DNA of 64,000 nucleotides from an uncultured bacterium (GTDB lineage Bacteria > Patescibacteriota > Saccharimonadia > UBA4664), in NCBI GenBank assembly GCA_963720265.1, contig CAVRET010000002.1:71602-135601 (forward strand), given 5' to 3'. A model generated the notes under the pieces. The model did no database searches. It was not told the origin of the DNA and worked only from the letters and a program-made list of their open reading frames with translations. Every line of letters starts with the position of its first letter. Within the stretch, counting starts at the first letter, position 1. Of this stretch, positions 13,901 through 54,897 are shown piece after piece. The position numbers were made by a program, and so were the translations under genes.

Positions 13901-15768
13901 ACGATCAAGATCCGCCGCTGGTCCATCACCTCGCGCAAGTTAAACGCACTCTGCGTTTGACCGATAATGTTGCGCATCATTTCGTTGTTCATGAAAGCGC
14001 CAAATTTCGATACAAACCAGCCGAGCATTTCACTCTTGTGGTAGTCGCTCGTCTGGCCCATCTCTTTCGTCCAAAAATCGATCACGGTCGGATCACGCAA
14101 GTATTTGAACTTGTTCTTGAGGTACTCGGTGTCCGTAAACACCTTCGGAATCTCAATGAATGTACTGCCGTTCGGGTCGCTCATAAGCGTCAGTGCGGCA
14201 TTCCGGTACCAATGCTCGTACCGCGGTCCGATAATACCGGTGTGTCCGGGGTCGTACAGTTTGTACAGCATGTTGATCGTTTCTTGGACAATAAAGTCCT
14301 TTTGGGATGGATCCGTAAACTCAAACAAGTTGAGCCCCAATGGATAGTCGGTGTCTGCCGGGTTAAAGTAAATTACGTCCTCAGCCCGCTCTTTGGGCAC
14401 AAGCGCCAGCAGCTTCTCGGCCGAGTCGCCGTGAGGATCAATGAAGGCAAACCCGTTGCCCGCCAGCATGTCCTGCACTGCCAGGTTTTCGAGCATAGTC
14501 GACTTACCGGTGCCAGTTTGGCCCAAAATATAGGTATGCCGTCGTCGGTCCTCAGGACTCAGCCGGATTTCCTTTTGCACACCACGAAATTCGTTGTAGC
14601 CAAACAGGAGTCCCACCGGCGACACCTGGATCGGACCATCCACCTGCTTCGACTGCATCCGCTCCACTGCCGTACTCGGTGTAAACTGCGAATCCGGCAG
14701 ATGGAATAGCGTAGCCAGTTCTTCGCTCGATAACACCCCGCCTTTCAGCTCCGGCGGGAAAAAACGAAAAATAAATGCCGTCACCAGGCCTTGCACATCA
14801 AGCGCCGGCAAAAACTTAAACCCGTTCAATCCCGGGGTATCGAACAGCGCAAACGCCGTCGCGATATCCCTCAGTTCCTGCTGACTTCTAGCCACCGAAT
14901 CGGTCGATACCACTACCCGCACCAGGGCGTCAAAACCCGGGTGTTTGGTTTTTTCCTCGATCTGCTCCACCGCCGCCAGTTCCAGATTGGAAGCCAAGGG
15001 CACGCCGGCATCTTTCTCATCTGCTCGTCTGGCCGATGGCGCTTTGAGCGCAGCCTGAACTAAATCCTGCGGGGTAAATCCGAGTCCGGCTCCGCGGCCC
15101 TTGCGCAACCCATCGGCGACCACTGCCGACCGCCTAACCCACGTCGGGTTCGCCGGCCGAAGCATGATCTGAATCGCCGCACCGTCGGTACTGCCAAGGC
15201 TGGACAAAATGGCCAAGATTGCTTCCATCGGGTCGCGCTCAAGCGTTTTGTAGGTCGCGATCGGGTAGGCGCCTTCAGTTCGTAGCACCATTTCGCCGCC
15301 CATGGTCGCAGCCAACCGCCCCTCACGGTTAAAAATGTTGTAATCCTCAGTTTCTTCCAGCCGTGCACCCGGATAGGCCGTCAGAATCGCCTGCTTCACC
15401 AGGCTCACCAGTGGCACGGGAACGGCCGCGTAAAAGTGCACCACCCCACCGTTCGCAATCAGCTCCAGCGCAATCTGCCGCTGTCCGTACAGTCTAGCCT
15501 TGACGCCGGCCGTAGCCGTGCCGGCCAGCAAGTTGTATAGCACCTCAGCCTGAGCCACCTTTTCGCGCATGACCTCGCGCACGTCCCGGCTGCCAGCCGT
15601 GGTATCCTCCGACTGCGGCGGCAAATGAATCAGGATTGGCACCATCTTTAAGCCGCGCTCAATGGCCTTGGCCCGCCTGAGTTTGCGCTTGTATGTAAAG
15701 TAGGCCACGTAGCCTAAGCCCCCGGCCAGTGCAAAGAATATCAGCACTATGACGATGATTACGCTCAC
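10963..15768 (-). CDS. giant membrane-anchored FtsK/HerA/TraG-VirD4-superfamily P-loop ATPase with ~850-aa Pro-rich C-terminal tail
   Basis: The 1601-aa product has one N-terminal TM helix, then a ~380-aa domain. The ATPase carries a Walker A (YILGQTGTGKST), an FIDPHGD motif, an FALYVDEFQNF Walker B-like motif and a KYRLNLIVANQ segment. The remainder is extreme PAPEPV low complexity ending in a short conserved tail. Confidence 0.7.
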   Translation of the reverse strand: MSVIIVIVLIFFALAGGLGYVAYFTYKRKLRRAKAIERGLKMVPILIHLPPQSEDTTAGSRDVREVMREKVAQAEVLYNLLAGTATAGVKARLYGQRQIALELIANGGVVHFYAAVPVPLVSLVKQAILTAYPGARLEETEDYNIFNREGRLAATMGGEMVLRTEGAYPIATYKTLERDPMEAILAILSSLGSTDGAAIQIMLRPANPTWVRRSAVVADGLRKGRGAGLGFTPQDLVQAALKAPSARRADEKDAGVPLASNLELAAVEQIEEKTKHPGFDALVRVVVSTDSVARSQQELRDIATAFALFDTPGLNGFKFLPALDVQGLVTAFIFRFFPPELKGGVLSSEELATLFHLPDSQFTPSTAVERMQSKQVDGPIQVSPVGLLFGYNEFRGVQKEIRLSPEDRRRHTYILGQTGTGKSTMLENLAVQDMLAGNGFAFIDPHGDSAEKLLALVPKERAEDVIYFNPADTDYPLGLNLFEFTDPSQKDFIVQETINMLYKLYDPGHTGIIGPRYEHWYRNAALTLMSDPNGSTFIEIPKVFTDTEYLKNKFKYLRDPTVIDFWTKEMGQTSDYHKSEMLGWFVSKFGAFMNNEMMRNIIGQTQSAFNLREVMDQRRILIVNLSKGRIGELNSQLLGMIFVIKFQAAAMSRAEVPEDQRPDFALYVDEFQNFSTDSFASILSEARKYRLNLIVANQFIGQLRPEIRDAVFGNIGTIVAHRMGPEDAEFMVKQFSPVFDAGDLVNLPNFNAAMRLMIGGLPSQPFTIRDSPPLGSANLELGQAIKQLSAAKFGHARAQVEQDILDRLSGRPARSVAPPVAVPPPAPQPAAVNPATQVGLAGMAGALGGQVAAVQAPPLPVAPVPPPAPAPIQPAGAAMQPIDLYGQGVASAAAPAPPPTPPVPPPPPPQPAPVSLPPLPLPSMPPPPAPVAPVQQIPQPPQPLPVMEETTYASPVAQAPTVTVEAPPVPPPPPSPLRPPVGSSAPSAPGTLSLSDITGGKTPARPTMGPAADSGLPASVAGSAAMQPSVAPPPQPSEEGAEDLIQVLDPGAKPAPEQPASADSGLMSTEGLPPGVTFIDQSMPAVAAPTVPEPAPTPPPLPVPEPEPELIPQPEPMPEPPLPPPALEPEPESSAPVTVPAPAPQPVPEPEPQPEQPAIEPTPPAPEPLPAVRLAPALAPRPVPPSTPEPILSPEPVAPEPAEVQPVVVAPQPQAAEQINEVEKQIDALVGTSLLDSSVERHRRLPIPKTTKLQPKEELVPVSEHHGIKVIQPTEPIESKREELQRELKREEAAEAAALAPQSVPVSAPPPPPPVPTQPAPVREPASQGPPAPAPEPVREPTPEPLPPVPAPKPVPPPRPEPTPPSPLAAPATPEPVLTVQQARAEPEAAVIKHPGQMMGVPPDVPKPQPAAMPVSGVVQTASDDLDLDVPQAESLAADDVAKARAEREASQKLDVPSEVVAAPQAPPPEPEPTKPAKDDKAERPVSTDNRKANKRRHWRDRDKNKENAPANHGSHKEKVIEPPESKPAPPSAPPPPPPQPQQPAQASTGEAEGAAVPGKLILPTAGTKPMESNEVKTEKPKKLAPGEVYVDENGNVMIGE

Positions 15769-24407: not shown

Positions 24408-24779
24408 AGAGCTACTATATCAGCGCCCTATCTTCCGAACAACACCCAAACAGCCTAAGACAAAGTAAGCGATCCTTTTGTCGCATAAGATATGACATTA
24501 TCCAGTGATTTTTTGGCTTTGTAGAGGAAAAGATTTTTAAAACTTTGACAAGAAACTCAGCCCGAACAAACGATGTTATGGTATGTTTTTGCAAATTAGA
24601 CCGATAGACGTTGTCGTCCTACGATTATGGGGTAACCAAAAAGGCCGGTACGTCTACCGACCATCGGCCATTTGGCTGCTAGGACCGTATCAAGATCGTC
24701 GCAATCTTTGTGGCGATCTTTTTGATCGCTAGCCACGCCAAGTCGCAAGTTTTTGCGACTAAAACGCTGGCGATCCATT

Positions 24780-25360
24780 AACCCCGCGAGGAACCCCGGA
24801 GCTTGCTCCGGGGAGGGATAGCGCCGGCGAGCACCTGTCCGCCTCTGGTGGACACAGCAGTCTTTCATTAGCACAATGGTGGTATGGACGTTCAAATCGG
24901 TGCCCACTGTCGGTATCAGATTCGGTACCATTTGGTATGGGGTGTCAAACTTCGACGCAAGGTACTGCTAGCCAACCGCAGCCAATACTTAAAGCGGGTG
25001 CTTGTCGAGATAGCCCAGGCTTACGACTGGGAGCTGGAAGCTGTTGGCACCGATGACGACCATGTCCATGTATTTATAGGTGCTCATCCAAAAATCGCGC
25101 CAGAGAAGTTGGTACAGATCTTAAAAAGCAAGAGCGCACGGGCCTTGTTTGTCCAGTTTCCCGAAGTCAAACAGTTCTTGTGGGGCGGTGCGATGTGGAG
25201 TGTCGGCTATTACATTAGGACCGTCTCTGACGGTCCGTTGGAAGGAGTTATAAAGACGTATGTTGAGCAACAAGGTAAGCACCGACCCACTCAGGCCAAA
25301 TCGTACCAACTGAAGCTGGTGCCCTAAGTGACAACCACGGAGCTTGCTCCGTGGGGGTGT
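24780..25360 (+). mobile_element. IS200/IS605-family insertion sequence (tnpA only)
   Basis: tnpA is flanked by near-identical direct-orientation hairpins. CCCCGGAGCttgCTCCGGGG lies at 24794-24813 and CCACGGAGCttgCTCCGTGG at 25335-25354. This is the typical subterminal LE/RE structure of Y1-transposase IS elements. Confidence 0.6.
24884..25327 (+). CDS. tnpA: IS200-like Y1 (HUH) transposase TnpA
   Basis: The 147-aa product contains YHLVWGVKLRRKVL, an HUH motif (DHVHVFI) and the catalytic-Tyr region (MWSVGYYI). Confidence 0.8.
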   Translation: MDVQIGAHCRYQIRYHLVWGVKLRRKVLLANRSQYLKRVLVEIAQAYDWELEAVGTDDDHVHVFIGAHPKIAPEKLVQILKSKSARALFVQFPEVKQFLWGGAMWSVGYYIRTVSDGPLEGVIKTYVEQQGKHRPTQAKSYQLKLVP

Positions 25361-25598
25361 CTTTGAAAGACCTACACGAGAAGGAGCCGGACAATCTCGT
25401 CCATGCTGGCCTCCGTGTTTATATTGGTTTTAAACGGAGGCGGTGTAACCCGCACCTCCAATAAACCACAAGAATTTTAGCTTTTAGCTTGACGATATTG
25501 ATTATATCCGTAAATGTATTCGAATGTGTTGTTAATACCACAACAAAGCCATATTTTGGCTTAAGTCAGTCCGCCGATGCTATGAGGGGTCACTCGAC

Positions 25599-26054
25599 CT
25601 AAACTATAGCTTTCAATAAACCGTCGATGCCCCGCTCAAACGCCGTCTCATCCTGCACACTCAAACGCTCAAATAATTCCTTTTGTCGCCGTGCCATCAT
25701 TGCCGCCGCCTCCCCCACTGCCTGCTTCCCTCGATCGGTCAAAGCTAGTACGTTCTCGCGCTTGCTCTTCGGATGCGGCTGCTGGATTACGAGCCCGCGT
25801 GTACCAAGTACTTCAACCTGCCGCGTTACAACTGCCGGCGTTACGTCCAAATAGCTGGCCAGCTCTCGCTGGCTCGCCTCGCCGAGTACGGCCAGCCCAT
25901 CAAGCAGCCTAAATTGAGAAAAGGTCAGCGCGAAGCTGACCTTTAACTCTGACTCCACCTCTCGCTCGAGGCTATTTGCGACTCGGGCGATTTTGTTGAG
26001 AAGTGATTTCTCAAATTTTGATTGAGAATTCCTTACCTGCACATTGAACTCCAT
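25599..26054 (-). CDS. MarR-family transcriptional regulator
   Basis: A winged HTH is present (FSQFRLLDGLAVLGEASQRELASYLDVTPAVVTRQVEVL). The ORF track extends to 26165 using a TTG. The internal ATG (MEFNVQ...) gives the typical ~150-aa size and has an AGGGG RBS. Confidence 0.7.
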   Translation of the reverse strand: MEFNVQVRNSQSKFEKSLLNKIARVANSLEREVESELKVSFALTFSQFRLLDGLAVLGEASQRELASYLDVTPAVVTRQVEVLGTRGLVIQQPHPKSKRENVLALTDRGKQAVGEAAAMMARRQKELFERLSVQDETAFERGIDGLLKAIV

Positions 26055-26353
26055 AAACAATATACCCCTAAATAATTTAGGGGTCAACAGTTTTCCCTCA
26101 CGATTTATCCACATGCTATCCCCCATCCGCGGCGCCAAACCGAACACCCAACCTAAATCCGTCAACTCTATCTGACAGTAAGCACGCTCCAGGATACGAC
26201 AGCATTAGAAATGCTATATTTTCCGAAATTCCGACTTAAAGTAAGGCTGAATCATATAGTATTTCTCTATTTATTAAATTAATGCATCTCGCAAGCTTAG
26301 GGATGCTAAAATAACAAAGCTGAAAAAGCCGACTTGAAAGGCGGTGTACCTAC

Positions 26354-26557
26354 ATGCCTGAAACCAATTGGATCGCCAGGCGGCACAGCGGAGGCCACTC
26401 CACCTATGCCACTGCCGAACACGCCGACTCGACCAACCAGACTACCCTAAGAGGACTGGCCATGCGCTTTCCAACCGAAGGACAGGCGAAGAAGGTTTTC
26501 GCCGACATGAACCCTGGCGAGCAAGCGCTATGGGAGACCCTCGAGGTACACAACTAA
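26354..26557 (+). CDS. small hypothetical protein (67 aa)
   Basis: It has an RBS-like AAAGG upstream and ends 8 nt before a perfect 16-bp stem hairpin. Support is weak. Confidence 0.25.
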   Translation: MPETNWIARRHSGGHSTYATAEHADSTNQTTLRGLAMRFPTEGQAKKVFADMNPGEQALWETLEVHN

Positions 26558-26564
26558 GTCCAGC

Positions 26565-26602
26565 CTGAACTCTTCCGGGGTTCATCCCCCGGAAGAGTTC
26601 AG
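26565..26602. repeat. perfect 16-bp stem hairpin (terminator-like, no U-tract; REP/IS200-end-like core)
   Basis: CTGAACTCTTCCGGGG ttcatc CCCCGGAAGAGTTCAG. Its CCGGGG...CCCCGG core resembles the IS200 end hairpins. Confidence 0.45.
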
Positions 26603-26776
26603 ATCCAGTTCGTGATTAAGTTAAAATTACTTTAACTACTTCTCTTTCTTTTAAAGTTTATTAAAAAATTCGATAATAATAAGGTTGCAGCGTGATTGAA
26701 TTATCATTTTTTTGGCCAACGATAATGTTATAAAAACTGAAATTATTGCAGAAATTAAGTGTGATTTGGCAACATT

Positions 26777-26807
26777 AAAACCGCCTACGTCGACGTTAGG
26801 CGGTTTT
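26777..26807. terminator. bidirectional rho-independent terminator
   Basis: AAAA-CCGCCTAcgtcgacgtTAGGCGG-TTTT is near-palindromic and sits between the convergent small ORF and vapC. Confidence 0.4.
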
Positions 26808-26812
26808 AATGT

Positions 26813-26844
26813 TCGTCCTGTGCGGCCAGCTTCGAAACTGGCAC
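26813..26844. repeat. direct repeat copy 1 (30/32 identical to 27625-27656), flanking the vapBC cassette
   Basis: TCGTCCTGTGCGGCCAGCTTCGaAACTGGcAC. The repeat contains the internal hairpin CCAGcTTC/GAAcTGG. Confidence 0.5.
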
Positions 26845-26854
26845 ACCTCAGATG

Positions 26855-27253
26855 CTACAAGCCCTCTATGATGATCTCATCAAGACGAAGATTGGTAAGC
26901 ATTTTATCGTTAGTAATAAAGACCTCAGCCTTATGCTCAACTGCGGTTGCAATGTGAACAGCGTCATAACCATAAACCGCCCTCCCATAATGCTTAGTCA
27001 ATTCAATCGCACGCTCGCAGATCCTTAAACTAACTGGCATAAACTTAGTTGCGCCCAAATCCCGCAATGCAGCTACTAGCTCAGTAGGATCGCCTTCCTG
27101 CAACATCACGCCCGTAAGAAGCTCTTGCCACGCTAGAACTGATAATACAGCTCCCTCATGCTCGCCTCTCTGCACAATAGATTGTGCCGCTTTTGACCAG
27201 GAACTTGTGCCTTCGAGAGCGTAGATCAGTATATTTGTGTCGTAGGCTATCAC
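26855..27253 (-). CDS. vapC: PIN-domain toxin VapC
   Basis: It starts MIAYDTNILIY and has conserved acidic residues. It overlaps the antitoxin stop by 4 nt. Confidence 0.8.
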   Translation of the reverse strand: MIAYDTNILIYALEGTSSWSKAAQSIVQRGEHEGAVLSVLAWQELLTGVMLQEGDPTELVAALRDLGATKFMPVSLRICERAIELTKHYGRAVYGYDAVHIATAVEHKAEVFITNDKMLTNLRLDEIIIEGL

Positions 27254-27528
27254 GATTTAAGTCTGGGTTGCATTGAATCACGCAACGTCCTAGTGTATTC
27301 GGCCGCATCTTGACCACGATTAGTCCATAGACCAGGAAGAGTACCGAAACGCCTCTCGATGGGCAGCTTCTCAGAAATCTTTAGATCGCCGTCATCCGTG
27401 ACAGTAACCGTAATCCGAGACCCAGGTTTTAAATTGAGCTGCTCACGCAAGTTCCTAGGCAAAGTAACCTGACTCTGCGACGAAACCTTTAGTGTGTAGG
27501 AAGTGTTCTTCATACACTGAATATACAT
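27250..27528 (-). CDS. vapB: AbrB/SpoVT/MazE-type antitoxin (VapB)
   Basis: A swapped-hairpin barrel motif is present (YTLKVSSQSQVTLPRNLREQLNLKPGSRITV). An alternative start lies at 27513 (MKNTSY...). Confidence 0.7.
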   Translation of the reverse strand: MYIQCMKNTSYTLKVSSQSQVTLPRNLREQLNLKPGSRITVTVTDDGDLKISEKLPIERRFGTLPGLWTNRGQDAAEYTRTLRDSMQPRLKS

Positions 27529-27624
27529 GATAATGGTACTAAAGTAAAGGTAAACGATTTACTTTATATATGACAGCTCAATCGTAAACATCTTGTCTGC
27601 ACAATAAAAGCATAAGAATCTTGG

Positions 27625-27656
27625 TCGTCCTGTGCGGCCAGCTTCGGAACTGGGAC
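27625..27656. repeat. direct repeat copy 2 (partner of 26813-26844)
   Basis: TCGTCCTGTGCGGCCAGCTTCGgAACTGGgAC. Confidence 0.5.
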
Positions 27657-27667
27657 GACTTATCCAA

Positions 27668-28231
27668 TTAGGACTTCGTAAATAGCTCCTCAGTGTCCTT
27701 CAAAAATACATCCAGCATATCCTTCTCCGACAGCCCCTTGTTCTTGTGCCCCAAATCAGTACGCATACACAGAATCACTCGAGCCGCCGCCTTCAACACA
27801 TTTTGGCTATCAGCAACGGCTGACCGCCGGAACTCAACAAATGCCTTTAGCGTGTTATCACTCCACCAAAGAGACCCATTTACCATCGCGCTTCTTAGCA
27901 TATCTCTTACGAAATTCAGATCTTTTGCCTTATCCGGGTCCTGAGTCACGGCCCAAATGTCACTCATAAACTTCGAGCAGACTTCCTCCTTTCTCTGCGC
28001 CTGCTGGGCTTGAATCTGGAGTTCCCGATCTTTCAGCTTTGTTGACCGTGCCACCCAAACCGATCCCCCTACAGTAAGCACTGCCACGACCAGGGTAACA
28101 TTGAGGTGCTTTAGATCAGCTCCAAAACTCTGCCAGAGCCATCTCAAGAATAATAATGCCAACACTAATAGCCCCAACGAAACGACCAAACCGAGCATAA
28201 TCTGTGCTTTCGACGGCTTAACTCTAGCCAT
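27668..28231 (-). CDS. membrane protein, two N-terminal TM helices (hypothetical)
   Basis: A 187-aa ORF with no recognisable motif, in the low-GC island. Confidence 0.4.
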   Translation of the reverse strand: MARVKPSKAQIMLGLVVSLGLLVLALLFLRWLWQSFGADLKHLNVTLVVAVLTVGGSVWVARSTKLKDRELQIQAQQAQRKEEVCSKFMSDIWAVTQDPDKAKDLNFVRDMLRSAMVNGSLWWSDNTLKAFVEFRRSAVADSQNVLKAAARVILCMRTDLGHKNKGLSEKDMLDVFLKDTEELFTKS

Positions 28232-28284
28232 ATATCGTACCTCTTACCTTAATTCTCTAGCGCAACACTATACAGTCTGCGCAC

Positions 28285-28575
28285 CTATTTCTGATTTTTC
28301 TGCGTACACGTACTGTATGGAAGACAAAACTGATTGAATATCGTGCCAGCACTTTTGAGCAATGCAGCTCCAAAGAATAATGTGGCGAGTATAACCGCGA
28401 TGCCTATCGCGCAAGCCATCATCTGCCCCGGACTAAACTTACGCAACTCAGCCAGAAAGTTACGCCTTGGGTGAGGTTTCGGCTTTCTATCGACACGCTC
28501 AACTATCCGAGCTTGCCGGATGTCCGGAATTTTAGGATTCTTTGCACGCCTGAGGTCGCGCATAACTCGTAGCAT
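28285..28575 (-). CDS. small membrane protein (hypothetical)
   Basis: A 96-aa ORF with one TM helix. Support is weak. Confidence 0.3.
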   Translation of the reverse strand: MLRVMRDLRRAKNPKIPDIRQARIVERVDRKPKPHPRRNFLAELRKFSPGQMMACAIGIAVILATLFFGAALLKSAGTIFNQFCLPYSTCTQKNQK

Positions 28576-28926
28576 GATGGTTGATAACCCTCATATCTCC
28601 CATCGCTACGGCACTACTACCAAAGGTTCACCTATCCAAAAAATACTCTCTGTAAAGCCATAAAATTGGCTTCAGGCTATTGAACGGCCTACAAATTTCT
28701 GTTAACCTTTGGTTACGTCACAGTAGACTTAGGGGGATGATTAATTTTTCAAAATCTGACAAAAGATCTGGAGCTAAGGGGGCAAAGCGTCGCCAAACAC
28801 GTACCCCTATTTTTGTCATGTGTTATCATTCCTCCTACTGTGATTTAGTAATACTCCGGCCTTACCGCTTATGCTTGGCTTTGCAAAGCCACTAAAGCTA
28901 ATGACGGTTACATTATGGCCCGGCCC

Positions 28927-28962
28927 ATAGCCTCCTGACAAGTGGAGGCTATTTATTTTGGC
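28927..28962 (+). terminator. rho-independent terminator with no obvious upstream CDS (possible sRNA 3' end)
   Basis: ATAGCCTCC tgacaagt GGAGGCTAT followed by TTATTTTGGCGTCTTTTTTT. Confidence 0.4.
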
Positions 28963-29083
28963 GTCTTTTTTTATTCACGCCTATACTAGTCACACTACCT
29001 TATCTGATATACCCTGCCATCAGTAGACAGTGACCACATCTCGGTAGTCTCGATACCCTGCCTAGCTCTACATATGATATATT

Positions 29084-29812
29084 TTGCCCATGCTAACAAA
29101 ACAACAGATTATCGATGAGATTAAGCGCACTGCCAGTGACAACGAAGGCAAACCATTGGGAGAGCGCAAGTTCAAAAGCGAAACCGGTATCAGCTCATGG
29201 GATTGGGGCAAGTATTGGGCAAGGTTTGGTGATGCACGGAGAGAAGCTGGTTTTGAGCCCAACCAAAGAAATGTCGCCTATGAGGACGAGGTATTAAATG
29301 AGAAAGCCGTTGAGTTGATACGTAGCTTAGGCAAGCTACCCACATATCGCGAACTACATCTAGCCTCGGTGAATGACCTGGACTTTCCATCCATTCACGC
29401 GTTTCGAAGGCGTTATACGACTATACCTGGCCTTATCGAGGGGTTATACGAGTTCTATAAAGGCAAAGATGGCTATCAAGACATAGTTAGCCTTTGTATA
29501 CCTGTACTAGAGAACACTGTTGGGGCACCAGCTACTGCAAAAGATAACGCTAGTGCCGGTGAAGTTTACCTTGTCAAATCGGGCCGCTATTACAAGATCG
29601 GCATGACTCGTGACATTGTACGACGAGGAAGTGAACTTAGGATTCAGCTTCCAGAGCGAATGGACTTGATTCATTCAATTACTACCGATGACCCGAGTGG
29701 CATTGAATCCTACTCGCACAGACGTTTTGAGCCTAAGCGAATGAACGGTGAATGGTTTGACCTCACTTCTACCGAAGTTAAGGCATTTAAGCGTTGGAAG
29801 CGGATATACTAA
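29084..29812 (+). CDS. T5orf172/GIY-YIG-like (MUG113) domain protein
   Basis: The C-terminal half contains VYLVKSGRYYKIGMT...EL, a conserved His and an EWF motif, the T5orf172 hallmark of phage and mobile-element proteins. Confidence 0.6.
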   Translation: MPMLTKQQIIDEIKRTASDNEGKPLGERKFKSETGISSWDWGKYWARFGDARREAGFEPNQRNVAYEDEVLNEKAVELIRSLGKLPTYRELHLASVNDLDFPSIHAFRRRYTTIPGLIEGLYEFYKGKDGYQDIVSLCIPVLENTVGAPATAKDNASAGEVYLVKSGRYYKIGMTRDIVRRGSELRIQLPERMDLIHSITTDDPSGIESYSHRRFEPKRMNGEWFDLTSTEVKAFKRWKRIY

Positions 29813-30010
29813 GCGTACACTCTTTCAATTTCAGCTAGATCTGGTATCCTCTCTTTTTCTAAGAAGGAGGATTCAGTTTATGATGACTAACAACCGTATC
29901 TCAGCCCTTCCGACGGCTATTCAAATCATGTGGTCCACAGAGCGGGCTGAATCGCTTGGGGGACATGTCGGACGGCCAGATGTGCATGTGACTTATATAC
30001 AGGCTTATTC

Positions 30011-30808
30011 GTGATGACTACACAAGCCTTACCTACAACTGCGTATGTTAAGCGTCGTGCCTATGAACTAAGCGAGCGTGATCTTGCAATTCTCCAAACG
30101 TTAGCAAAAGTGAGGTTAGCGACCACTCGACAGTTACAGAGGTTACATGTTTATGAAGGCACTCCAATTGGTAACGCTCGAGTAACCGCTAGAGTCCTTA
30201 AACGGTTAGCAGATAACCAGATCCTCATTCGATTGCCCCGACAGGTTGGTGGTATAAGGGCGGGATCAGCGAGCATAGTGTTCACATTGGCTCGTCCTGC
30301 CATAGCATTACTCAACCCAGAATCGACCACGATAAGGACGCCATCCATTCCCGGCGACCAATACGTTGGTCACGCCCTGGCCGTCACTGAGCTGTATGCG
30401 AACTTAAAAGAAATCGAACGCGCTGGTCTGCTAACTGTAGTCCTATTTAAAGTTGAGCCGCGGCGGTCCGTCTCGATGTATATGAGCCGTAAACTACTGC
30501 GCCCAGACGCTTATGCCAAGATTCACATTGGCCAATACTCATACTCCTGGTTCATTGAAATGGATTTAGCAACTGAGCGTCGGCCGCAATTGAGACAAAA
30601 AATAGATAGCTACCTCAGGTACTGGGGTAACGGTAAGGAGCAGGCTCGCAACAGAGTATTCCCGAAAGTCCTTTTCTTAGTCCCCGACAGTAATCGCAAG
30701 ACGCTACTTGAAGAACTCATTATGCATGTACCTAGCTATGCGAGAGAACTGTTTCAAGTTGAACTGATTCAAGACTCACAAAACACTTTGAGTAAAGAGC
30801 ACGACTAA
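30011..30808 (+). CDS. replication-relaxation (Replic_Relax)-like protein
   Basis: N-terminal wHTH (LSERDLAILQTLAKVRLATTRQLQRL), a length of about 265 aa, and a position next to a recombinase. Family assignment is inference. Confidence 0.5.
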   Translation: MMTTQALPTTAYVKRRAYELSERDLAILQTLAKVRLATTRQLQRLHVYEGTPIGNARVTARVLKRLADNQILIRLPRQVGGIRAGSASIVFTLARPAIALLNPESTTIRTPSIPGDQYVGHALAVTELYANLKEIERAGLLTVVLFKVEPRRSVSMYMSRKLLRPDAYAKIHIGQYSYSWFIEMDLATERRPQLRQKIDSYLRYWGNGKEQARNRVFPKVLFLVPDSNRKTLLEELIMHVPSYARELFQVELIQDSQNTLSKEHD

Positions 30809-30896
30809 GCAAGCAGAACCGCATCGTGAAAGCTCCTTGCTTCCAGTTCCTGATCTGGTATCCTCTCTGATCCAATAACCAGGAGCAACCAAGCCT

Positions 30897-32714
30897 ATGA
30901 AGCAAGCCGTTATTTACGTTCGAGTCAGCACACTCGGCCAAGCTAAGCGAGACCGCGACCCTGAGGGCTACTCTATCCCCGCTCAGCGCGAAGCTTGTAC
31001 CCGAAAAGCCGAAAGCTTAGAAGCTACCGTTATCGCCGAATACGTAGATGCCGGTGAATCTGCCCGCTCTGCTGACCGTACGGAGCTACAACGTATGTTG
31101 AACTTTTTGCAACAGAATAGGTCTGTTGACTACGTAATCGTCCATAAAGTCGACCGTTTAGCCCGTAATCGTGAGGACGACGTTAATATCAACCTCGCCA
31201 TTCGCAAAGGTGGAGCCAAGCTTGTCTCATGTACTGAAAACATCGATGAAACCCCCTCCGGTCGTCTAGTCCATGGCATCATGGCTACCATCGCCGACTT
31301 CTATTCCTCCAATCTGGCCGCCGAAGTCGCCAAAGGCATGACCCAAAAAGCCAAGACCGGCGGCACAGTCACGCGCGCTCCACTCGGTTACACTAACCGT
31401 CACGAGCTTACCGATGGGCATGACATTCGCTGGGTGGATATCGATGAGAGCCGCGCCGATCTCGTCCGACTGGCTTTCAAGCTGTATGCCACCGGCGACT
31501 ACTCGCTAGTTGCCCTCGCAGAGATCTTAACTAAGAAGGGCTTACTATCGCGTGCGACCAAGCGCCACTCTGAACACGCTCTCACCAAAACCACGCTGGC
31601 GCAAATGTTAGCCAACCCGTATTACACCGGCATCACCACCTACCAAGGCGTTGAGTACCCCGGCAAGCACCCGGCGCTTATCGATCCTGGCCTCTTCGGG
31701 CAGGTTCAAGACGTACTAAAGGCCCGCTTAATTGGCGAAAAACAACGGGTGCACATGCATTACCTCAAGGGCACAATCTTCTGTGGCCGCTGCGGCTCAC
31801 GGCTGTGCGTGACTTACCAGAAACAACAATACTTGTACTACTTCTGTCTCGGTCGCTCCAAGAACAACGGTTGCACTCTACCTTACCTAAATGCCGACGA
31901 CATCGAAACCCAAATCACGCGCTATTACTCCCTGATTAAGCTAAGTAAAGCTGAAGGTGAGCATGTCCGCTCAGAAGTCCACACCTACATCAAAGAAAAC
32001 CAGGCCGACTTTACTACTGAGGCCAAGCGGCAACGGCTGCTGCTTGAACAGCTTGAAGCCGAGCATGCGAAATTGCTCCAAGCCTACTACGCCGGTTTTA
32101 TGCCACTCGATACCTTCGGTGCCGAGCAAAGCCGCATAGCAACCGCCAAACAACACGCCACTGAAACACTCGCCACAGCCGAGCAAGGATTTGACGACGT
32201 GGCTGGTAAATTAGACCAGGCCTTACATCTAATGCAAAACTGGAGTGAAGTGTATGAGGAAGCTCCCAAACGGCTCAGGCGCAAGCTGAACCAAGCCTTC
32301 TTTGAGGCTATCTATGTTCAAGAATCCGATGATCTCGTTACAACAAATGGGTCGCAACTGACCGAGCCATTCGCGGGCATTATGACGATCTCTGGCAGGC
32401 CTCGTGCCGCAATAACCAAAATGACTGCTCAGGTACGAAAAAACCAACCTGTTCGGTCGGTCCCTTCGAACATACCTGTTTTTTATACAGAAGGTTCCAA
32501 AGCGGAACCTCTGGTCGGGGTGAGAGGACTTGAACCTCCGACCTCAGCGACCCGAACGCTGCGCGCTTCCAACTGCGCCACACCCCGAAGGCCTCTGAAC
32601 CAAATAATAATAACCTTAAATTGCGAAGTTTGCCAGTCTAAGACCGCCCAAACCAGAACGGACGTGGCACTCTCACCTCATCGCCAGCGGGTCGGGCGCG
32701 TCTGGTTGAAGTGA
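30897..32714 (+). CDS. large serine recombinase (resolvase/invertase N-domain, recombinase domain, zinc ribbon)
   Basis: It starts MKQAVIYVRVSTLGQ with the catalytic Ser. It has the DRLARN motif, a recombinase domain and a CGRCGSRLCV...FCLG zinc ribbon. The last ~70 codons of the ORF run antisense through tRNA-Pro, so the true C-terminus is uncertain. Confidence 0.85.
   Translation: MKQAVIYVRVSTLGQAKRDRDPEGYSIPAQREACTRKAESLEATVIAEYVDAGESARSADRTELQRMLNFLQQNRSVDYVIVHKVDRLARNREDDVNINLAIRKGGAKLVSCTENIDETPSGRLVHGIMATIADFYSSNLAAEVAKGMTQKAKTGGTVTRAPLGYTNRHELTDGHDIRWVDIDESRADLVRLAFKLYATGDYSLVALAEILTKKGLLSRATKRHSEHALTKTTLAQMLANPYYTGITTYQGVEYPGKHPALIDPGLFGQVQDVLKARLIGEKQRVHMHYLKGTIFCGRCGSRLCVTYQKQQYLYYFCLGRSKNNGCTLPYLNADDIETQITRYYSLIKLSKAEGEHVRSEVHTYIKENQADFTTEAKRQRLLLEQLEAEHAKLLQAYYAGFMPLDTFGAEQSRIATAKQHATETLATAEQGFDDVAGKLDQALHLMQNWSEVYEEAPKRLRRKLNQAFFEAIYVQESDDLVTTNGSQLTEPFAGIMTISGRPRAAITKMTAQVRKNQPVRSVPSNIPVFYTEGSKAEPLVGVRGLEPPTSATRTLRASNCATPRRPLNQIIITLNCEVCQSKTAQTRTDVALSPHRQRVGRVWLK
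32512..32587 (-). tRNA. tRNA-Pro (anticodon CGG)
   Basis: Manual cloverleaf: acceptor CGGGGTG/CACCCCG, U8, D-stem GCGC/GCGC, anticodon stem CAGCG/CGCTG with loop TTCGGGT, T-arm GGAGG-TTCAAGT-CCTCT, discriminator A, and an encoded CCA. Length is 76 nt. Confidence 0.85.
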
Positions 32715-51652: not shown

Positions 51653-51705
51653 GTCCGATTGTATCAGAAAAGCCCTTATGACACTCTGAGGTTGTTTACA
51701 AATCG

Positions 51706-53921: not shown

Positions 53922-53989
53922 TTTCTCATCCTAAAGCGTTTCTTTAGTTTTGTAAAATTAATTTAGTATTTAGTTTAAATTTATTCTCT

Positions 53990-54884: not shown

Positions 54885-54897
54885 TAGTTACTAGCTG

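What the first reader, a model, noticed from the sequence alone, without database searches (positions are those of the whole stretch)
24408..32590. Low-GC integrative island ending at tRNA-Pro
Between the core genes rmuC and the tRNA-Pro/helicase region lies ~8 kb of lower-GC DNA. It contains a transposase, a MarR regulator, a vapBC toxin-antitoxin pair, two hypothetical membrane proteins, a T5orf172/GIY-YIG-like protein, a Replic_Relax-like protein and a large serine recombinase that ends at the 3' end of tRNA-Pro. That gene content is typical of integrative mobilisable or actinomycete-ICE-like elements. Such elements are rarely documented in reduced CPR-type genomes. The intergenic segments 26170-26850 and 27530-29080 are strongly AT-rich. 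I found no copy of the tRNA 3' end as an att direct repeat.
Basis: partly seen in the sequence, partly recalled or inferred. Interest (0 to 1): 0.6.

Follow-up and report, generated by a model that had tools for sequence, protein, structure and literature searches.

The report
Serine-integrase mobile island at tRNA-Pro

Summary
The low-GC island is real: GC is 47.8% against 54.9±2.3% elsewhere (z −3.1), and it is the strongest tetranucleotide outlier in the window. All gene calls were confirmed. The 8.2-kb span, however, contains three separate things.

1. An IS200 copy is inserted between rmuC and marR.
2. marR is a core gene, syntenic in relatives.
3. A layered insertion lies at the 3' end of tRNA-Pro(CGG), from about 26810 to 32517.

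The layered insertion consists of an 0.8-kb vapBC unit and a 4.9-kb element. The element encodes two small membrane proteins, a T5orf172/MUG113 protein, a small ORF, a Replic_Relax (MOBC-type) relaxase and an intact large serine recombinase (LSR).

Attachment sites were found. A 35-nt element arm (P') occurs at 26810-26844 and at 27622-27656. It joins a 6-bp core, TGGTCG, which is also the tRNA's ACCA end at 32512-32517. The attP core lies inside the LSR reading frame, so integration swaps the protein's tail: 554 aa in the free form, 605 aa when integrated.

Relatives carry different stacks at the same tRNA. Of 116 full-length LSR homologues, 82 also read into a tRNA, including one from Rhodococcus. 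The same genome carries a larger sister element at tRNA-Val.

Verdict: a tRNA-targeting, LSR-driven integrative mobilisable element in an accretion array. This is a new variant of a known kind.

The parts
24794..25354 (+). IS200-type insertion sequence. tnpA is at 24884-25327, with flanking hairpins CCCCGGAGCTTGCTCCGGGG (24794-24813) and CCACGGAGCTTGCTCCGTGG (25335-25354). It is an independent insertion, not part of the tRNA island.
   Evidence: Pfam Y1_Tnp E = 6.5e-33. NCBIfam transpos_IS200 scores 126 bits against a cutoff of 55. The marR-rmuC gap is 1191 nt here but 16-45 nt in L001, L002 and L082. Logan contig L091 ends exactly at 25335.
25599..26165 (-). MarR-family regulator. It is a core gene, not island cargo.
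   Evidence: Pfam MarR/MarR_2. It is found next to rmuC at 64-76% aa identity in L001, L002, L082, L087 and L092.
26166..26809 (.). AT-rich filler of unknown origin (43% GC). It holds a 67-aa ORF (26354-26557, +) and two strong hairpins (26565-26602 and 26771-26813). It has no counterpart in relatives.
   Evidence: The ORF was called as a gene in L091. No family hits.
26810..26844 (+). Older, probably dead att junction: a mutated core TGTTCG (26810-26815) followed by the element arm P' (TCCTGTGCGGCCAGCTTCGAAACTGG, 26816-26841).
   Evidence: It is the 35-nt direct repeat of 27622-27656 at 91% identity. Pattern search found 2 matches against 0 expected. The same arm follows recombinase 3' remnants in L082 and L085.
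26855..27528 (-). vapBC type II toxin-antitoxin pair: vapC (PIN) at 26855-27253 and vapB (AbrB/MazE) at 27250-27528, overlapping by 4 nt. It is the surviving content of an older unit bounded by P' on one side and a degenerate P-like arm (Y) on the other.
   Evidence: Pfam PIN E = 1.6e-17 and MazE_antitoxin E = 9e-12. The same [P'-vapC-vapB-Y] unit occurs in L082 and L085; L093 carries vapC-vapB with the Y-like arm and a P' variant on the vapB side only. In L092 the pair sits 155 nt from the tRNA.
27580..27656 (+). attL of the 4.9-kb element: left arm Y (..AAAAGCATAAGAATCT, ending at 27621), core TGGTCG (27622-27627), element arm P' (27628-27653).
   Evidence: Similarity to the recombinase-tRNA junction and to the P-P' junctions of L082 and L085 switches exactly at the core.
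27668..28575 (-). Two small predicted membrane proteins of unknown function (187 aa at 27668-28231; 96 aa at 28285-28575). They are cargo of the element.
   Evidence: Hydrophobic segments. No Pfam, NCBIfam or PADLOC family; one marginal PHROG hit. The corresponding positions in L082 and L085 hold different genes.
29084..29812 (+). MUG113/T5orf172 (GIY-YIG-like nuclease fold) domain protein. Cargo; function not established.
   Evidence: Pfam MUG113 E = 5.8e-16 and T5orf172 E = 4e-7. PHROG hits are all of unknown function apart from one weak endonuclease hit. No credible PADLOC hit.
29838..29854 (+). Copy 1 of the perfect 17-nt repeat GATCTGGTATCCTCTCT. It lies 25 nt upstream of the small ORF and relaxase operon and is a candidate shared operator or promoter element.
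29880..30014 (+). 44-aa ORF immediately upstream of, and overlapping, the relaxase gene. Unknown function; a candidate accessory or directionality factor by inference only.
   Evidence: Called as a gene in L091. Preceded by AAGGAGG and the 17-mer. No family hit for the enclosing 88-aa ORF 29748-30014.
30011..30808 (+). Replic_Relax protein (PF13814), a member of the MOBC relaxase / nicking-type replication initiator family. It is the element's mobilisation or replication function.
   Evidence: Pfam E = 1e-31 over 191/191 profile positions. PHROG 9381 'replication initiation by nicking', E = 1e-21. PF13814 is equated with MOBC relaxases in PMC5357655. It is 36-40% identical to the Replic_Relax proteins of L082, L084, L085 and L088.
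30852..30868 (+). Copy 2 of the 17-nt repeat, 28 nt upstream of the recombinase start codon. It is conserved at the same place in L082 and L085.
30897..32714 (+). Intact large serine recombinase. Residues 1-540 are element-encoded. The last 65 residues are read-through across the att core into antisense tRNA-Pro and host DNA. The free (attP) form is predicted to be 554 aa.
   Evidence: Pfam Resolvase, Recombinase and Zn_ribbon_recom. Catalytic-domain residues are invariant in the alignment, including S11. Reconstruction. The homologue P0002 ends with the predicted attP-form tail EPLVVLCGQLRNWD.
32470..32517 (+). attR: element arm P (..GGTTCCAAAGCGGAACCTC, with GGTTCC...GGAACC at 32493-32509) plus the core TGGTCG (32512-32517), which is the complement of the tRNA's CGACCA 3' end.
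32512..32587 (-). tRNA-Pro(CGG), intact. Its acceptor 3' strand and T-arm form the host arm (B') of the attachment site.
   Evidence: ARAGORN. Rfam tRNA at 61.9 bits. The same tRNA occupies this locus in L001, L002, L057, L082, L086 and L092.

Best explanation
Window positions ~26810-32517 are a two-layer accretion array at the 3' end of tRNA-Pro(CGG). It was built by a tRNA-targeting large serine recombinase (LSR).

The tRNA-proximal layer (27622-32517, 4.9 kb) is a complete integrative mobilisable element. It carries an intact LSR, a MOBC-type Replic_Relax relaxase/nicking initiator with a small upstream ORF, and three cargo genes.

Its attP (P-TGGTCG-P') lies inside the 3' end of the LSR gene. 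Recombination takes place within the 6-bp core that is also the tRNA's discriminator-CCA end. The tRNA therefore stays intact, no tRNA direct repeat is produced, and the LSR tail changes from a 14-residue element-encoded end (554 aa in total) to a 65-residue read-through (605 aa).

The distal layer (26810-27621) is what remains of an earlier insertion: P', vapC, vapB and a degenerate P-like arm (Y). The addictive toxin-antitoxin pair probably kept it in place.

New arrivals insert at the tRNA-proximal junction and push older ones outward. Transfer between cells would need a coupling protein and a pore supplied in trans. The same genome has a sister element with a TraG/TrwB-type coupling protein at tRNA-Val.

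Shown: the gene families, the repeated arms, the break-points of similarity, the variable occupancy in relatives, and the clade-wide tRNA overlap. Inferred: the crossover position within the core, present-day activity, the order of the insertions, and mobilisation in trans.
For: 1. Composition is a clear outlier.

2. Synteny. Relatives have helicase-SprT-tRNA-Pro-[variable]-MarR-RmuC-TrpRS, and more distant Saccharibacteria have SprT next to RmuC. None of 80 species-representative loci has the LSR or the P' arm.

3. att anatomy. P' is repeated at 26816-26841 and 27628-27653 (2 matches, 0 expected). In L082 and L085 the LSR 3' end continues as ...GGAACCTCTGGTCG|TCCTGTGCGGCC... (P-P'). At the tRNA it continues as ...TGGTCG|GGGTGAGAGG. 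Similarity therefore switches exactly at TGGTCG.

4. The reconstructed attP-form LSR is 554 aa, which matches homologue lengths of 547-555 aa. The homologue P0002 really does end in EPLVVLCGQLRNWD.

5. Clade property. 82 of 116 full-length homologues carry an antisense-tRNA peptide (G[FLI]EP..) in the last 90 residues. None does in any of five N-terminal control windows. DNA confirms the overlap with tRNA-Val (L084, L090) and tRNA-Arg (Rhodococcus, L088). The geometry is identical in all of them: GGTTCnnAA, 11 nt, the tRNA end TGGT, then the antisense T-loop 17 nt inside.

6. Accretion. L082 has three successively shorter LSR 3' remnants (704, 238 and 79 nt), each followed by P', at increasing distance from the tRNA.

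7. Variable occupancy at the same tRNA.
- L092, the closest relative (TrpRS and RmuC 90%), has vapBC plus only a 95-nt LSR stub.
- L086 has only an AbiE unit between a P' site and the tRNA.
- The JGI contig has other cargo.

8. Incongruent similarity. Against L082, LSR is 88%, VapB 93% and VapC 84% identical, whereas helicase is 51%, MarR 65% and SprT 73%. Against L092, vapBC is ~82% but TrpRS and RmuC are 90%.

9. The LSR is intact here, with conserved catalytic residues, and both cores are TGGTCG.

10. Replic_Relax belongs to the MOBC relaxase family. Sister elements with a coupling protein occur in the same 1,108,292-bp genome and in Rhodococcus.
Against: - There is no direct evidence of excision or of a circular form. 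The two short-read contigs of the source sample break inside the tRNA (window 32520 and 32541). A shared tRNA k-mer from co-occurring relatives explains that equally well.
- No unoccupied site matching the predicted post-excision junction (Y-TGGTCG-tRNA) was found in the metagenome scan.
- The closest relative, L092, has an LSR stub at the tRNA rather than a virgin site. The new element therefore seems to have entered an already occupied, attR-like junction. Canonical serine integrases (phiC31, Bxb1, A118; my own knowledge) do not do this without a directionality factor.
- The LSR genes at this locus are split in three relatives, so the lineage may be mostly decaying.
- The element has no coupling protein or pore genes, and no directionality factor was identified.
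- The window's Replic_Relax is only ~40% identical to those of L082 and L085, although the LSRs are 80-88% identical. The element is therefore a mosaic, and its left part could have been acquired by homologous recombination rather than by site-specific insertion.
Confidence: 0.7

Rival explanations
1. The short units bounded by P' and a P-like arm are non-autonomous cassettes that the LSR inserts in trans at the tRNA-proximal junction. Examples are vapBC here and in L082 and L085 (in L093 only the vapB-side junction was seen), an HD-domain gene in L082, and AbiE in L086. On this view they are not relics of decayed LSR elements. Each insertion would regenerate a usable site next to the tRNA.
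For: - The [P'-vapC-vapB-Y] unit has the same ~0.8-kb extent and both arms in three genomes with different left neighbours; L093 adds vapBC with a Y-like arm on the vapB side only.
- The 18-nt Y arm plus P' is 93% identical next to two unrelated genes, vapB and an HD_3 gene.
- In L086 an AbiEii/AbiEi unit lies between Z-TGGTCG-P' and Y2-TGGTCG-tRNA, with no LSR nearby.
- In L085 a nearly full LSR element lies distal to the vapBC unit. That is odd if vapBC is the relic of a younger element.
- vapBC similarity is incongruent with the host phylogeny.
Against: - Y grades into the P arm: P is GCGGAACCTC, L093 has GAGGAACATA, and Y is TAAGAATCT. L092 has a 95-nt LSR stub in the place of Y. This is what decay of an LSR 3' end would give.
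- No circular cassette and no cassette at another tRNA was seen.
- Toxin-antitoxin genes are exactly what is expected to survive deletion of the rest of an element.
- L086 and L087 are short contigs, so an LSR elsewhere in that genome cannot be assessed.
Confidence: 0.25
2. The whole 26810-32517 segment (5.7 kb, including vapBC) is one element that integrated once. On this view vapBC is its stabilisation module, and the inner Y-TGGTCG-P' site is an internal fossil or duplicate inherited with it. The outer site at 26810-26844 is the true attL.
For: - P' at 26816-26841 lies directly beside vapC, and the LSR/P arm is at the other end.
- In L085 vapBC follows directly after LSR-P-P', which is the order expected in a circular element.
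- L082 shows alternating short and LSR-bearing units that could each be such composites.
Against: - The outer core is TGTTCG, not TGGTCG. It no longer matches the tRNA-side core and would block serine-recombinase exchange if the changed base lies in the crossover dinucleotide.
- In L092 vapBC is present without the 4.9-kb part, and in L086 another short unit stands alone.
- vapBC (83% nt) and the LSR (88% nt) are both conserved against L082, but the DNA between them is unrelated.
Confidence: 0.15
3. The array is an immobile fossil, inherited vertically at this tRNA in one Saccharimonadia lineage and now only decaying. The intact LSR reading frame is either chance survival or a domesticated function.
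For: - The LSR is split in L082/L083, in L085 and in the JGI contig.
- Stubs and remnants are common.
- The same locus is occupied in every close relative seen.
- No excision evidence was obtained.
Against: - The LSR here is full-length, all family-invariant residues are present, and both cores match.
- The mobile genes are much more similar between the window and L082 than the flanking core genes are.
- The cargo differs completely between relatives.
- Composition is still far from the genome's.
Confidence: 0.12
4. One reading: one ~8.2-kb integrative island stretching from rmuC to tRNA-Pro, including the transposase and MarR.
For: GC is lowered over the whole span (48.4%), and all the listed genes are present.
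Against: - marR sits next to rmuC in five relatives, whatever lies at the tRNA.
- IS200 has its own hairpin ends and fills a spacer that is 16-45 nt elsewhere.
- The neighbouring core genes TrpRS and RmuC are themselves only 50.8% GC.
- The att arms delimit 26810-32517.
Confidence: 0.03

Closest known systems
Integrative and mobilisable elements (IMEs) with a serine integrase and a MOBC (PF13814) relaxase, as catalogued in streptococci (Coluzzi et al. 2017, PMC5357655; review PMC5704250)
   Same: The gene logic is the same: its own integrase plus a relaxase-type protein, no coupling protein or pore, a small size, and variable cargo. PF13814 is listed there as the Rel_PF13814/MobC relaxase superfamily.
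   Different: The streptococcal serine-integrase IMEs reported there do not target tRNA ends. In that catalogue tRNA 3' ends are targets of tyrosine integrases. The host phylum differs. The LSR here is under 31% identical to any LSR in the phage and plasmid collections.
Mycobacterium AICEs whose serine recombinases integrate into a tRNA-Leu gene (Ghinet et al. 2011, PMC3218068)
   Same: A large serine recombinase mediates integration into a tRNA gene in an actinobacterial-type integrative element. The authors call this rare. The Rhodococcus relative found here (L088, at tRNA-Arg) shows that the clade lives in Corynebacteriales-type hosts too.
   Different: AICEs are defined by an FtsK/TraB-type translocase and RepSA/RepAM/Prim-Pol replication genes, and none is present here. 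The relatives carry a TraG/TrwB-type coupling protein and Replic_Relax instead. I could not fetch the Mycobacterium proteins, so membership of the same LSR clade is untested.
SCC elements of staphylococci (SCCmec and composite islands; CcrAB/CcrC large serine recombinases). Comparison from my own knowledge.
   Same: In both, an LSR inserts DNA at the extreme 3' end of a conserved gene without inactivating it. New units stack in tandem at the same junction. Recombinase-less units bounded by the same site sequences sit in the stacks. The best NCBIfam hits of this LSR are CcrB, XisF and CcrC, all far below their cutoffs.
   Different: The target is a tRNA rather than rlmH(orfX). There is one LSR rather than the CcrA/CcrB pair. 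The attP core is inside the recombinase gene. A relaxase gene is present. The phylum is different.
Tycheposons and tRNA-proximal island growth in Prochlorococcus (Hackl et al., bioRxiv 10.1101/2020.12.28.424599)
   Same: The island-building model is the same. Elements enter at the tRNA, older ones are pushed distally and degrade, and fragmented integrases are scattered along the island. 27 of the 937 elements there carry a large serine recombinase.
   Different: Nearly all tycheposons use tyrosine recombinases and leave partial-tRNA direct repeats, whereas here there is none. The hallmark genes, host and habitat all differ.
Canonical phage serine integrases (A118/LI, Bxb1, phiC31) and their att-site rules. 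From my own knowledge: Rutherford et al. 2013; Van Duyne and Rutherford 2013.
   Same: The domain architecture is the same. The sites are short and quasi-palindromic around a small core, and there is no long direct repeat. The P' arm carries its T-loop-like motif 4-5 bp farther from the core than the tRNA arm does. That is the sense and size of the known attP/attB half-site offset.
   Different: The P arm has the same spacing as the tRNA arm, so attP is asymmetric here. The target is a tRNA end. attP is embedded in the integrase ORF. The stacks imply use of an already occupied junction, which canonical integrases avoid.
SSV-type archaeal integrases (tyrosine family) with attP inside the int gene, targeting tRNA genes. 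From my own knowledge.
   Same: The attachment site lies inside the integrase's own coding sequence and the target is a tRNA gene, so integration alters the integrase gene.
   Different: These belong to a different recombinase superfamily. SSV integration splits int into two parts, whereas here only the last 14 codons are exchanged and the enzyme core stays intact.

Membership tests
Large serine recombinase (serine integrase) | N-terminal resolvase catalytic domain with the nucleophilic serine | tested here: met
   PF00239 E = 1.4e-31 over residues 4-156. S11, R9 and the other catalytic-domain residues fall in invariant columns of a 16-sequence alignment.
Large serine recombinase (serine integrase) | C-terminal recombinase domain plus zinc-ribbon domain | tested here: met
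   PF07508 E = 1.7e-13 (residues 186-276) and PF13408 E = 1.3e-11 (residues 290-343).
Large serine recombinase (serine integrase) | Coiled-coil motif inserted in the zinc-ribbon domain, which controls directionality | not tested
   Residues ~350-450 are conserved among homologues, but no coiled-coil or structure prediction was run.
Large serine recombinase (serine integrase) | Short att sites with a 2-bp crossover and no long direct repeats | tested here: inconclusive
   Similarity break-points confine the exchange to a 6-bp core, TGGTCG, and no tRNA repeat exists. The crossover dinucleotide cannot be fixed from sequence alone.
Integrative and mobilisable element (IME) | Encodes its own integrase and is delimited by att sites | tested here: met
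   An intact LSR, with attL at 27622-27656 and attR at 32470-32517.
Integrative and mobilisable element (IME) | Carries a relaxase and/or oriT but lacks a complete conjugation apparatus | tested here: met
   Replic_Relax/MOBC. No coupling protein, VirB4 or pore genes lie between 27622 and 32517. An oriT was not identified.
Integrative and mobilisable element (IME) | Excises, and is transferred by a helper conjugative element | not testable with these tools
   This needs read-level junction analysis or experiments. A candidate helper with a TraG/TrwB-type coupling protein is in the same genome.
Actinomycete ICE (AICE) | FtsK/SpoIIIE-type TraB double-strand DNA translocase | tested here: not met
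   No such domain occurs in any ORF of the island. The larger relatives carry TrwB/TraG-type coupling proteins instead.
Actinomycete ICE (AICE) | RepSA, RepAM or Prim-Pol replication module | tested here: not met
   Only PF13814 Replic_Relax was found. The AICE criteria are taken from PMC3218068.
Actinomycete ICE (AICE) | Site-specific integration in a tRNA gene | tested here: met
   Integration is at the 3' end of tRNA-Pro(CGG).
T4SS-type ICE | Coupling protein plus VirB4-type ATPase and mating-pore genes | tested here: not met
   All are absent from 26810-32517.
Type II toxin-antitoxin, VapBC | PIN-domain toxin preceded by an overlapping small AbrB/MazE-fold antitoxin gene | tested here: met
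   PF01850 and PF04014. The genes overlap by 4 nt (27250-27253).
IS200/IS605 insertion sequence | Y1 (HUH) transposase with subterminal hairpins and no terminal inverted repeats | tested here: met
   The NCBIfam IS200 equivalog scores 126 bits against a cutoff of 55. Related 20-nt hairpins lie on each side of tnpA. The exact ends were not mapped.
Prophage or phage satellite | Capsid, terminase, portal, tail or lysis genes, or satellite hallmark genes | tested here: not met
   PHROG hits are limited to a nicking replication initiator and unknown-function families. No relative was found in IMG/VR or in the phage collection above 31% identity.
Tycheposon | tRNA-targeting tyrosine recombinase of the tycheposon clade, with partial-tRNA direct repeats | tested here: not met
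   The recombinase is of the serine type and there is no partial tRNA repeat. Only the island-growth model is shared.

The most novel reading that the evidence does not exclude
The LSRs of this clade have evolved to recognise the universal 3' end of tRNA genes (discriminator-CCA plus the T-arm) through an attP embedded in their own coding sequence. Because the host-side flank matters little, an already occupied junction stays usable. This would turn the tRNA end into a serine-recombinase 'landing pad' that captures successive elements and integrase-less toxin-antitoxin/defence cassettes in trans, in a way functionally analogous to SCC composite islands or an integron platform. The same element family would circulate between Saccharibacteria and Actinobacteria. 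Some cultured Saccharibacteria are known to live as epibionts on Actinobacteria (my own knowledge; not established for this lineage), which would give a route for gene flow between episymbiont and host.
Probability: 0.25. Interest if true: 0.8.

Novelty: new variant of a known kind. Interest (0 to 1): 0.6.

Why it matters
**For CPR biology.** Saccharibacteria have ~1-Mb genomes, and literature searches found no description of integrative mobilisable or conjugative elements in them. This genome carries two related serine-recombinase elements at two tRNA genes. One has a coupling-protein gene, and relatives occur in Rhodococcus. That gives a concrete, testable vehicle for horizontal transfer into and out of these episymbionts.

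**For recombinase biology.** tRNA genes are classically tyrosine-integrase targets, and serine-recombinase use of tRNA genes has been called rare (PMC3218068). Here 82 of the 116 closest full-length homologues, out of more than 4000 database proteins matching at E ≤ 1e-10, read into a tRNA end, and the four junctions checked at DNA level share one fixed geometry. This offers a natural series of LSRs whose target is a near-universal sequence. It also poses a puzzle: how does a serine integrase re-use an occupied site?

**For annotation.** The C-terminal 10-65 residues of many database entries for this clade are antisense-tRNA read-through, not real conserved protein sequence.

Tried and rejected
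- **Exact look-up of the 605-aa LSR.** It is not on record.
- **IMG/VR scans.** Neither the LSR nor a degenerate P-P' pattern found a relative. There is therefore no evidence that this is a virus.
- **Phage and plasmid collections.** They hold only distant LSRs, at most 32% identical and over the N-terminal part only.
- **Metagenome scan for the predicted post-excision site** (Y-TGGTCG-tRNA). No match.
- **Contig breaks of the source sample's short-read assembly, as a hint of population heterogeneity.** The breaks fall inside the tRNA (32520 and 32541) and at the IS200 hairpin (25335). Repeated k-mers explain them equally well, so I did not count them as evidence of excision.
- **Classifying the left arms (Y, Z, X2) as attB-type or attP-type by motif spacing.** Z contains GGTCAAGT, a mirror of the T-arm motif, but at the wrong distance. 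Y has only AAAGC..GAAT. I judged this inconclusive and dropped it.
- **An 'alternation rule'** in which cassettes enter by attL x attR and elements by attP x attB. I rejected it as a strict rule, because in L082 two LSR-type units abut directly at a P-P' junction (site at 6802).
- **Defence-system annotation of the cargo.** PADLOC gave nothing credible. Rfam found only the tRNA.
- **A prophage reading.** Rejected, because there are no structural or lysis genes.
- **The second low-GC stretch (52-55.5 kb).** It encodes ordinary dehydrogenases and a glycosyltransferase and shows no sign of mobility.

Full report
**1. What organism and locus this is.**
A scan of species-representative genomes with the RmuC protein returned almost only Saccharimonadia/Saccharibacteria (TM7, CPR) assemblies. 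The best hits were 82% and 78% identical. Exact-protein look-ups place the window on a single 1,108,292-bp contig, held by NCBI and ENA, from the sample that also gave the Logan run ERR11523669.

**2. Checking the observation.**
- Composition. The window averages 53.7% GC. The finding span has 48.4% and 26166-32517 has 47.8%. Equal-length windows outside the span average 54.9% (sd 2.3; n = 173), and none is as low (z = -3.1). The strand-symmetric tetranucleotide distance from the rest of the window is highest at 26001-31000: 0.325 against a mean of 0.168, sd 0.048.
- Genes. The two hypothetical proteins have two and one strongly hydrophobic segments.
- tRNA. ARAGORN and Rfam find one tRNA in the region, tRNA-Pro(CGG), at 32512-32587 on the minus strand.
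- Three corrections are needed.
  - The recombinase ORF (30897-32714) does not stop at the tRNA. It reads antisense through all of it.
  - 27530-29080 is coding, not intergenic.

**3. Synteny separates three things.**
I ran tblastn with the window's proteins against 80 related loci. ORF and tRNA listings followed for the two closest species representatives.
- L001 and L002 have helicase-SprT-tRNA-Pro(CGG)-[variable]-MarR-RmuC-TrpRS. More distant Saccharibacteria have SprT next to RmuC.
- MarR lies beside RmuC at 64-76% identity in L001, L002, L082, L087 and L092. It is therefore a core gene.
- The MarR-RmuC spacer is 16-45 nt in relatives but 1191 nt here. The extra DNA holds an IS200 Y1 transposase flanked by two related 20-nt hairpins at 24794-24813 and 25335-25354. 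This is a separate insertion.
[quoted passage not shown] It holds an amine-oxidase-like gene in L001, about 0.8 kb in L002, and about 6.3 kb here.

**4. Attachment sites.**
The key came from L082, a 189-kb contig of a related genome found through a 94%-identical recombinase fragment.
- The window's recombinase-plus-tRNA segment matches L082 at 88% nt identity. The last 79-704 nt of the recombinase gene also match three further places in L082. In addition, 32-42-nt pieces at window 26810-26841 and 27612-27657 match several L082 sites.
- Reading these out shows one architecture. At the tRNA the recombinase 3' end runs ...GGTTCCAAAGCGGAACCTC TGGTCG GGGTGAGAGGACTTGAACC. I call the left part arm P, then comes the core, then the tRNA, which is arm B'. 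At the internal L082 sites and in L085 the same arm P and core are followed instead by TCCTGTGCGGCCAGCTTCGGAACTGG, which is arm P'.
- In the window, P' occurs twice in direct orientation, at 26816-26841 and 27628-27653 (2 matches, 0 expected by shuffling). Each copy follows a core: TGTTCG for the first and TGGTCG for the second.
- The core TGGTCG is the complement of the tRNA's CGACCA end.
- Similarity among P-P', P-B' and Y-P' junctions therefore switches within these 6 bp. A serine recombinase with a 2-bp crossover would leave exactly this, and it explains why there is no tRNA direct repeat. That the exchange occurs there is an inference from the break-points. The dinucleotide itself is not determined.

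**5. The attP core is inside the recombinase gene.**
- Joining the element-side sequences (P from 32517 leftwards, P' from 27628 rightwards) gives an ORF of 554 aa ending ...EPLVVLCGQLRNWDDLSN. The integrated gene is 605 aa, and its last 65 residues are antisense tRNA and host DNA.
- Homologues are typically 547-555 aa.
- The 79%-identical homologue P0002, whose gene abuts a P-P' junction in L085, ends ...EPLVVLCGQLRNWDTNTFE. The reconstruction predicts that tail up to ...RNWD; the last residues differ because P0002 lies in a different flank.

**6. This is a property of the whole recombinase clade.**
- In the alignment of the LSR with 15 selected full-length homologues, most sequences end in ...GS....LV...G(L/F/I)EP(P/A)T....
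- GFEP/GLEP is the translation of the antisense T-arm (GGA TTC GAA CC). The LV comes from the xTG GTx core, and the GS from a GGTTC motif.
- 82 of 116 full-length homologues have the G[FLIVM][EKD]P motif in their last 90 residues. None has it in any of five 90-residue control windows from the N-terminal 450 residues.
- At DNA level, the three further loci I examined all have the recombinase 3' end overlapping the 3' end of an antisense tRNA: tRNA-Val in L084 and L090, and tRNA-Arg in L088 from a Rhodococcus assembly. With the window's tRNA-Pro junction that makes four.
- The geometry is the same in all four junctions. GGTT(C/T)nnA(A) ends 11 nt before the tRNA end. The junction begins TGGT, which is the complement of the discriminator A plus CCA. 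The antisense T-loop motif begins 17 nt inside the tRNA.
- In P' the corresponding motif (TTCGGAAC) lies 4-5 bp farther out. From my own knowledge of A118/LI-type integrases, the sense and size of this offset match the known difference between attP-type and attB-type half-sites. Arm P, however, has the tRNA-like spacing. I record that asymmetry as unexplained.

**7. What the element encodes.**
Between attL (core 27622-27627) and attR (core 32512-32517) lie 4.9 kb, containing:
- two small membrane proteins;
- a MUG113/T5orf172-domain protein;
- a 44-aa ORF;
- a Replic_Relax protein;
- the recombinase.

Replic_Relax matches PF13814 over the full profile and the PHROG 'replication initiation by nicking'. 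In the IME literature PF13814 is equated with the MOBC relaxase superfamily (PMC5357655).

A perfect 17-mer, GATCTGGTATCCTCTCT, precedes both the small-ORF/relaxase operon and the recombinase gene. It is conserved upstream of the recombinase in L082 and L085. This suggests common regulation, by inference.

There is no coupling protein, VirB4 or pore gene, and no FtsK/TraB, RepSA, RepAM or Prim-Pol gene. By content this is therefore an IME, not an AICE or an ICE.

Larger relatives do carry a TraG/TrwB-type coupling protein next to Replic_Relax, a DNA methyltransferase, an HTH regulator and the recombinase. These are L084 at tRNA-Val and the Rhodococcus locus L088 at tRNA-Arg. The recombinase of L084 (P0008) is recorded on a contig of 1,108,292 bp, the same length as the contig holding the window's proteins, and it comes from the same sample. 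The host genome therefore almost certainly carries both elements. Whether the larger one acts as a helper is conjecture.

**8. The distal layer and the stacks in relatives.**
vapBC (26855-27528) is bracketed by P' on the vapC side and, on the vapB side, by an arm I call Y (..AAAAGCATAAGAATCT), the core, and the next P'. The same unit with the same ends occurs in L082 and L085; L093 carries vapBC with a Y-like arm, the core and a P' variant on the vapB side only, with no P' found beyond vapC.
- L082 is a five-unit stack. From the tRNA outwards it holds:
  - a near-complete element with a split recombinase;
  - a 704-nt recombinase remnant;
  - the vapBC unit;
  - a 238-nt remnant;
  - an HD-domain gene unit;
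  - a 79-nt remnant.

  Every junction is P-P' or Y-P'. Remnants shorten with distance from the tRNA, which fits entry at the tRNA side, as in the tycheposon model.
- L092 is the closest relative by core genes (TrpRS and RmuC 90%). It has MarR-NT5C-TauE-vapC-vapB, then a 95-nt recombinase stub with arm P, then the tRNA, and no 4.9-kb element.
- L086 and L087 have only an AbiEii/AbiEi pair between a Z-core-P' site and a Y2-core-tRNA junction.
- A JGI contig has other cargo and a split recombinase at the same locus.
- Y resembles a worn-down arm P. P is GCGGAACCTC, L093 has GAGGAACATA, L092's stub has GCGGAATCTC, and Y is TAAGAATCT. I therefore favour the view that the short toxin-antitoxin units are relics of older elements. 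The alternative, that they are cassettes moved in trans, is not excluded, and I list it as a rival and as the basis of the novel case.

**9. Evidence for movement rather than simple vertical descent.**
- Against L082 the mobile genes are much more similar (recombinase 88%, VapB 93%, VapC 84%) than the flanking core genes (helicase 51%, MarR 65%, SprT 73%, the 760-aa neighbour 41%).
- Against L092 the relation is reversed: vapBC is about 82% identical while TrpRS and RmuC are 90%.
- Cargo differs entirely among relatives.
- The window's Replic_Relax is only about 40% identical to those of L082 and L085, although the recombinases are 80-88% identical. The elements are therefore mosaics.
- None of the 80 species-representative RmuC loci contains the recombinase or P'.

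**10. What is not shown.**
- I have no read-level evidence of excision.
- The short-read contigs of the source sample break inside the tRNA and at the IS200 hairpin. Repeats explain this as well as heterogeneity does.
- Canonical serine integrases do not use an occupied junction, yet the stacks and L092 imply that this happens here. The mechanism is open.
- No directionality factor was identified.
- The recombinase is split in three relatives, so many copies are decaying.

**11. Comparison with what is known.**
- Serine-recombinase integration into tRNA genes has a precedent in eight Mycobacterium AICEs at tRNA-Leu. The authors described this as rare (PMC3218068). A few tycheposons carry large serine recombinases.
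- Searches of the held literature found nothing on such elements in Saccharibacteria. They also found no description of a recombinase clade whose attP lies in its own 3' coding end at tRNA termini. The library is incomplete, so this is absence of evidence only.
- Functionally the closest analogue I know is the staphylococcal SCC system. It too has an LSR, a target at the 3' end of a conserved gene, tandem composite islands, and recombinase-less units. This comparison is from memory and was not tested here.

**12. Verdict.**
The finding is real and its interpretation is largely right in kind. It is wrong in extent and in treating the span as a single island.

What is there is a 4.9-kb IME, apparently intact, driven by a serine recombinase and integrated at the CCA end of tRNA-Pro(CGG). 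It is stacked on a vapBC relic, with an unrelated IS200 and a core marR to the left.

I rate it a new variant of a known kind, with interest 0.6. The interest rests on:
- the clade-wide tRNA-end targeting with attP inside the gene;
- the stacking at an occupied site;
- the presence of two such elements in a ~1.1-Mb CPR genome, with relatives in Actinobacteria.

Noticed in passing
window 24408-25598: An IS200-type element (tnpA 24884-25327, with hairpins at 24794-24813 and 25335-25354) sits in the marR-rmuC spacer. It is a single copy in the window. However, the source sample's short-read contig L091 ends exactly at the 25335 hairpin, which suggests more copies elsewhere in the genome or community. 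About 390 nt between rmuC and the left hairpin (24408-24793) are unexplained.
   Followed up: partly
window 10963-15768 (minus strand), within the high-GC stretch ~11000-13500: A 1601-aa ORF whose only Pfam signal is a sub-threshold HerA/DUF87 ATPase match (E = 4e-4, 20.9 bits against a cutoff of 23.2). It lies in DNA of 63-66% GC against a window mean of 54%. This is the second strongest tetranucleotide outlier in the window. It may be another horizontally acquired gene.
   Followed up: partly
L084 (Logan ERR11523669_424380), same 1,108,292-bp genome as the window: A second element of the same recombinase clade (49% identity) sits at tRNA-Val(TAC). It carries a TraG/TrwB-type coupling protein, Replic_Relax, an N6/N4 DNA methyltransferase and an HTH regulator. 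The Rhodococcus locus L088 at tRNA-Arg(TCT) has the same gene order plus ArdA and an ImmA-like peptidase.
   Followed up: partly
protein database entries P0005-P0120 (homologues of window 30897-32714): The annotated C-termini of most members of this recombinase clade are antisense-tRNA read-through (G[FLI]EP.. peptides). Their lengths depend on where a stop codon happens to fall. This is an annotation artefact that could mislead alignments and domain definitions.
   Followed up: yes
window 29838-29854 and 30852-30868: A perfect 17-nt direct repeat, GATCTGGTATCCTCTCT, lies upstream of the relaxase operon and of the recombinase gene. The recombinase-proximal copy is conserved in L082 and L085. 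It is a likely shared operator or promoter element. No binding protein has been identified.
   Followed up: partly
window 26354-26602: An orphan 67-aa ORF is followed by a perfect 16-bp-stem hairpin (26565-26602). It sits in AT-rich DNA between marR and the oldest att site. It has no homologue in any fetched locus and no family hit.
   Followed up: partly
L086 366-2015 and L087 (JGI Ga0302325/Ga0302326): In a relative (RmuC 84%), the slot at tRNA-Pro holds only an AbiEii toxin gene (Pfam E = 7e-27) and an upstream 215-aa partner. Z-TGGTCG-P' bounds them on one side, and the tRNA core bounds them directly on the other. This is a recombinase-less toxin-antitoxin unit sitting at the tRNA.
   Followed up: partly
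window 51700-56300: A second mildly low-GC stretch (48-49%) encodes two D-2-hydroxyacid dehydrogenase-family proteins, one of them with an IclR-type HTH, and a GT4 glycosyltransferase. There are no mobility genes, so it looks like ordinary chromosomal variation.
   Followed up: partly
L001 6189-7286 and L082 11729-12655: Some relatives carry an extra gene of about 310-365 aa with unknown function. In L001 it lies between SprT and tRNA-Pro; in L082 it lies between tRNA-Pro and SprT. It is absent in the window. The other flank of the tRNA is therefore also variable.
   Followed up: no
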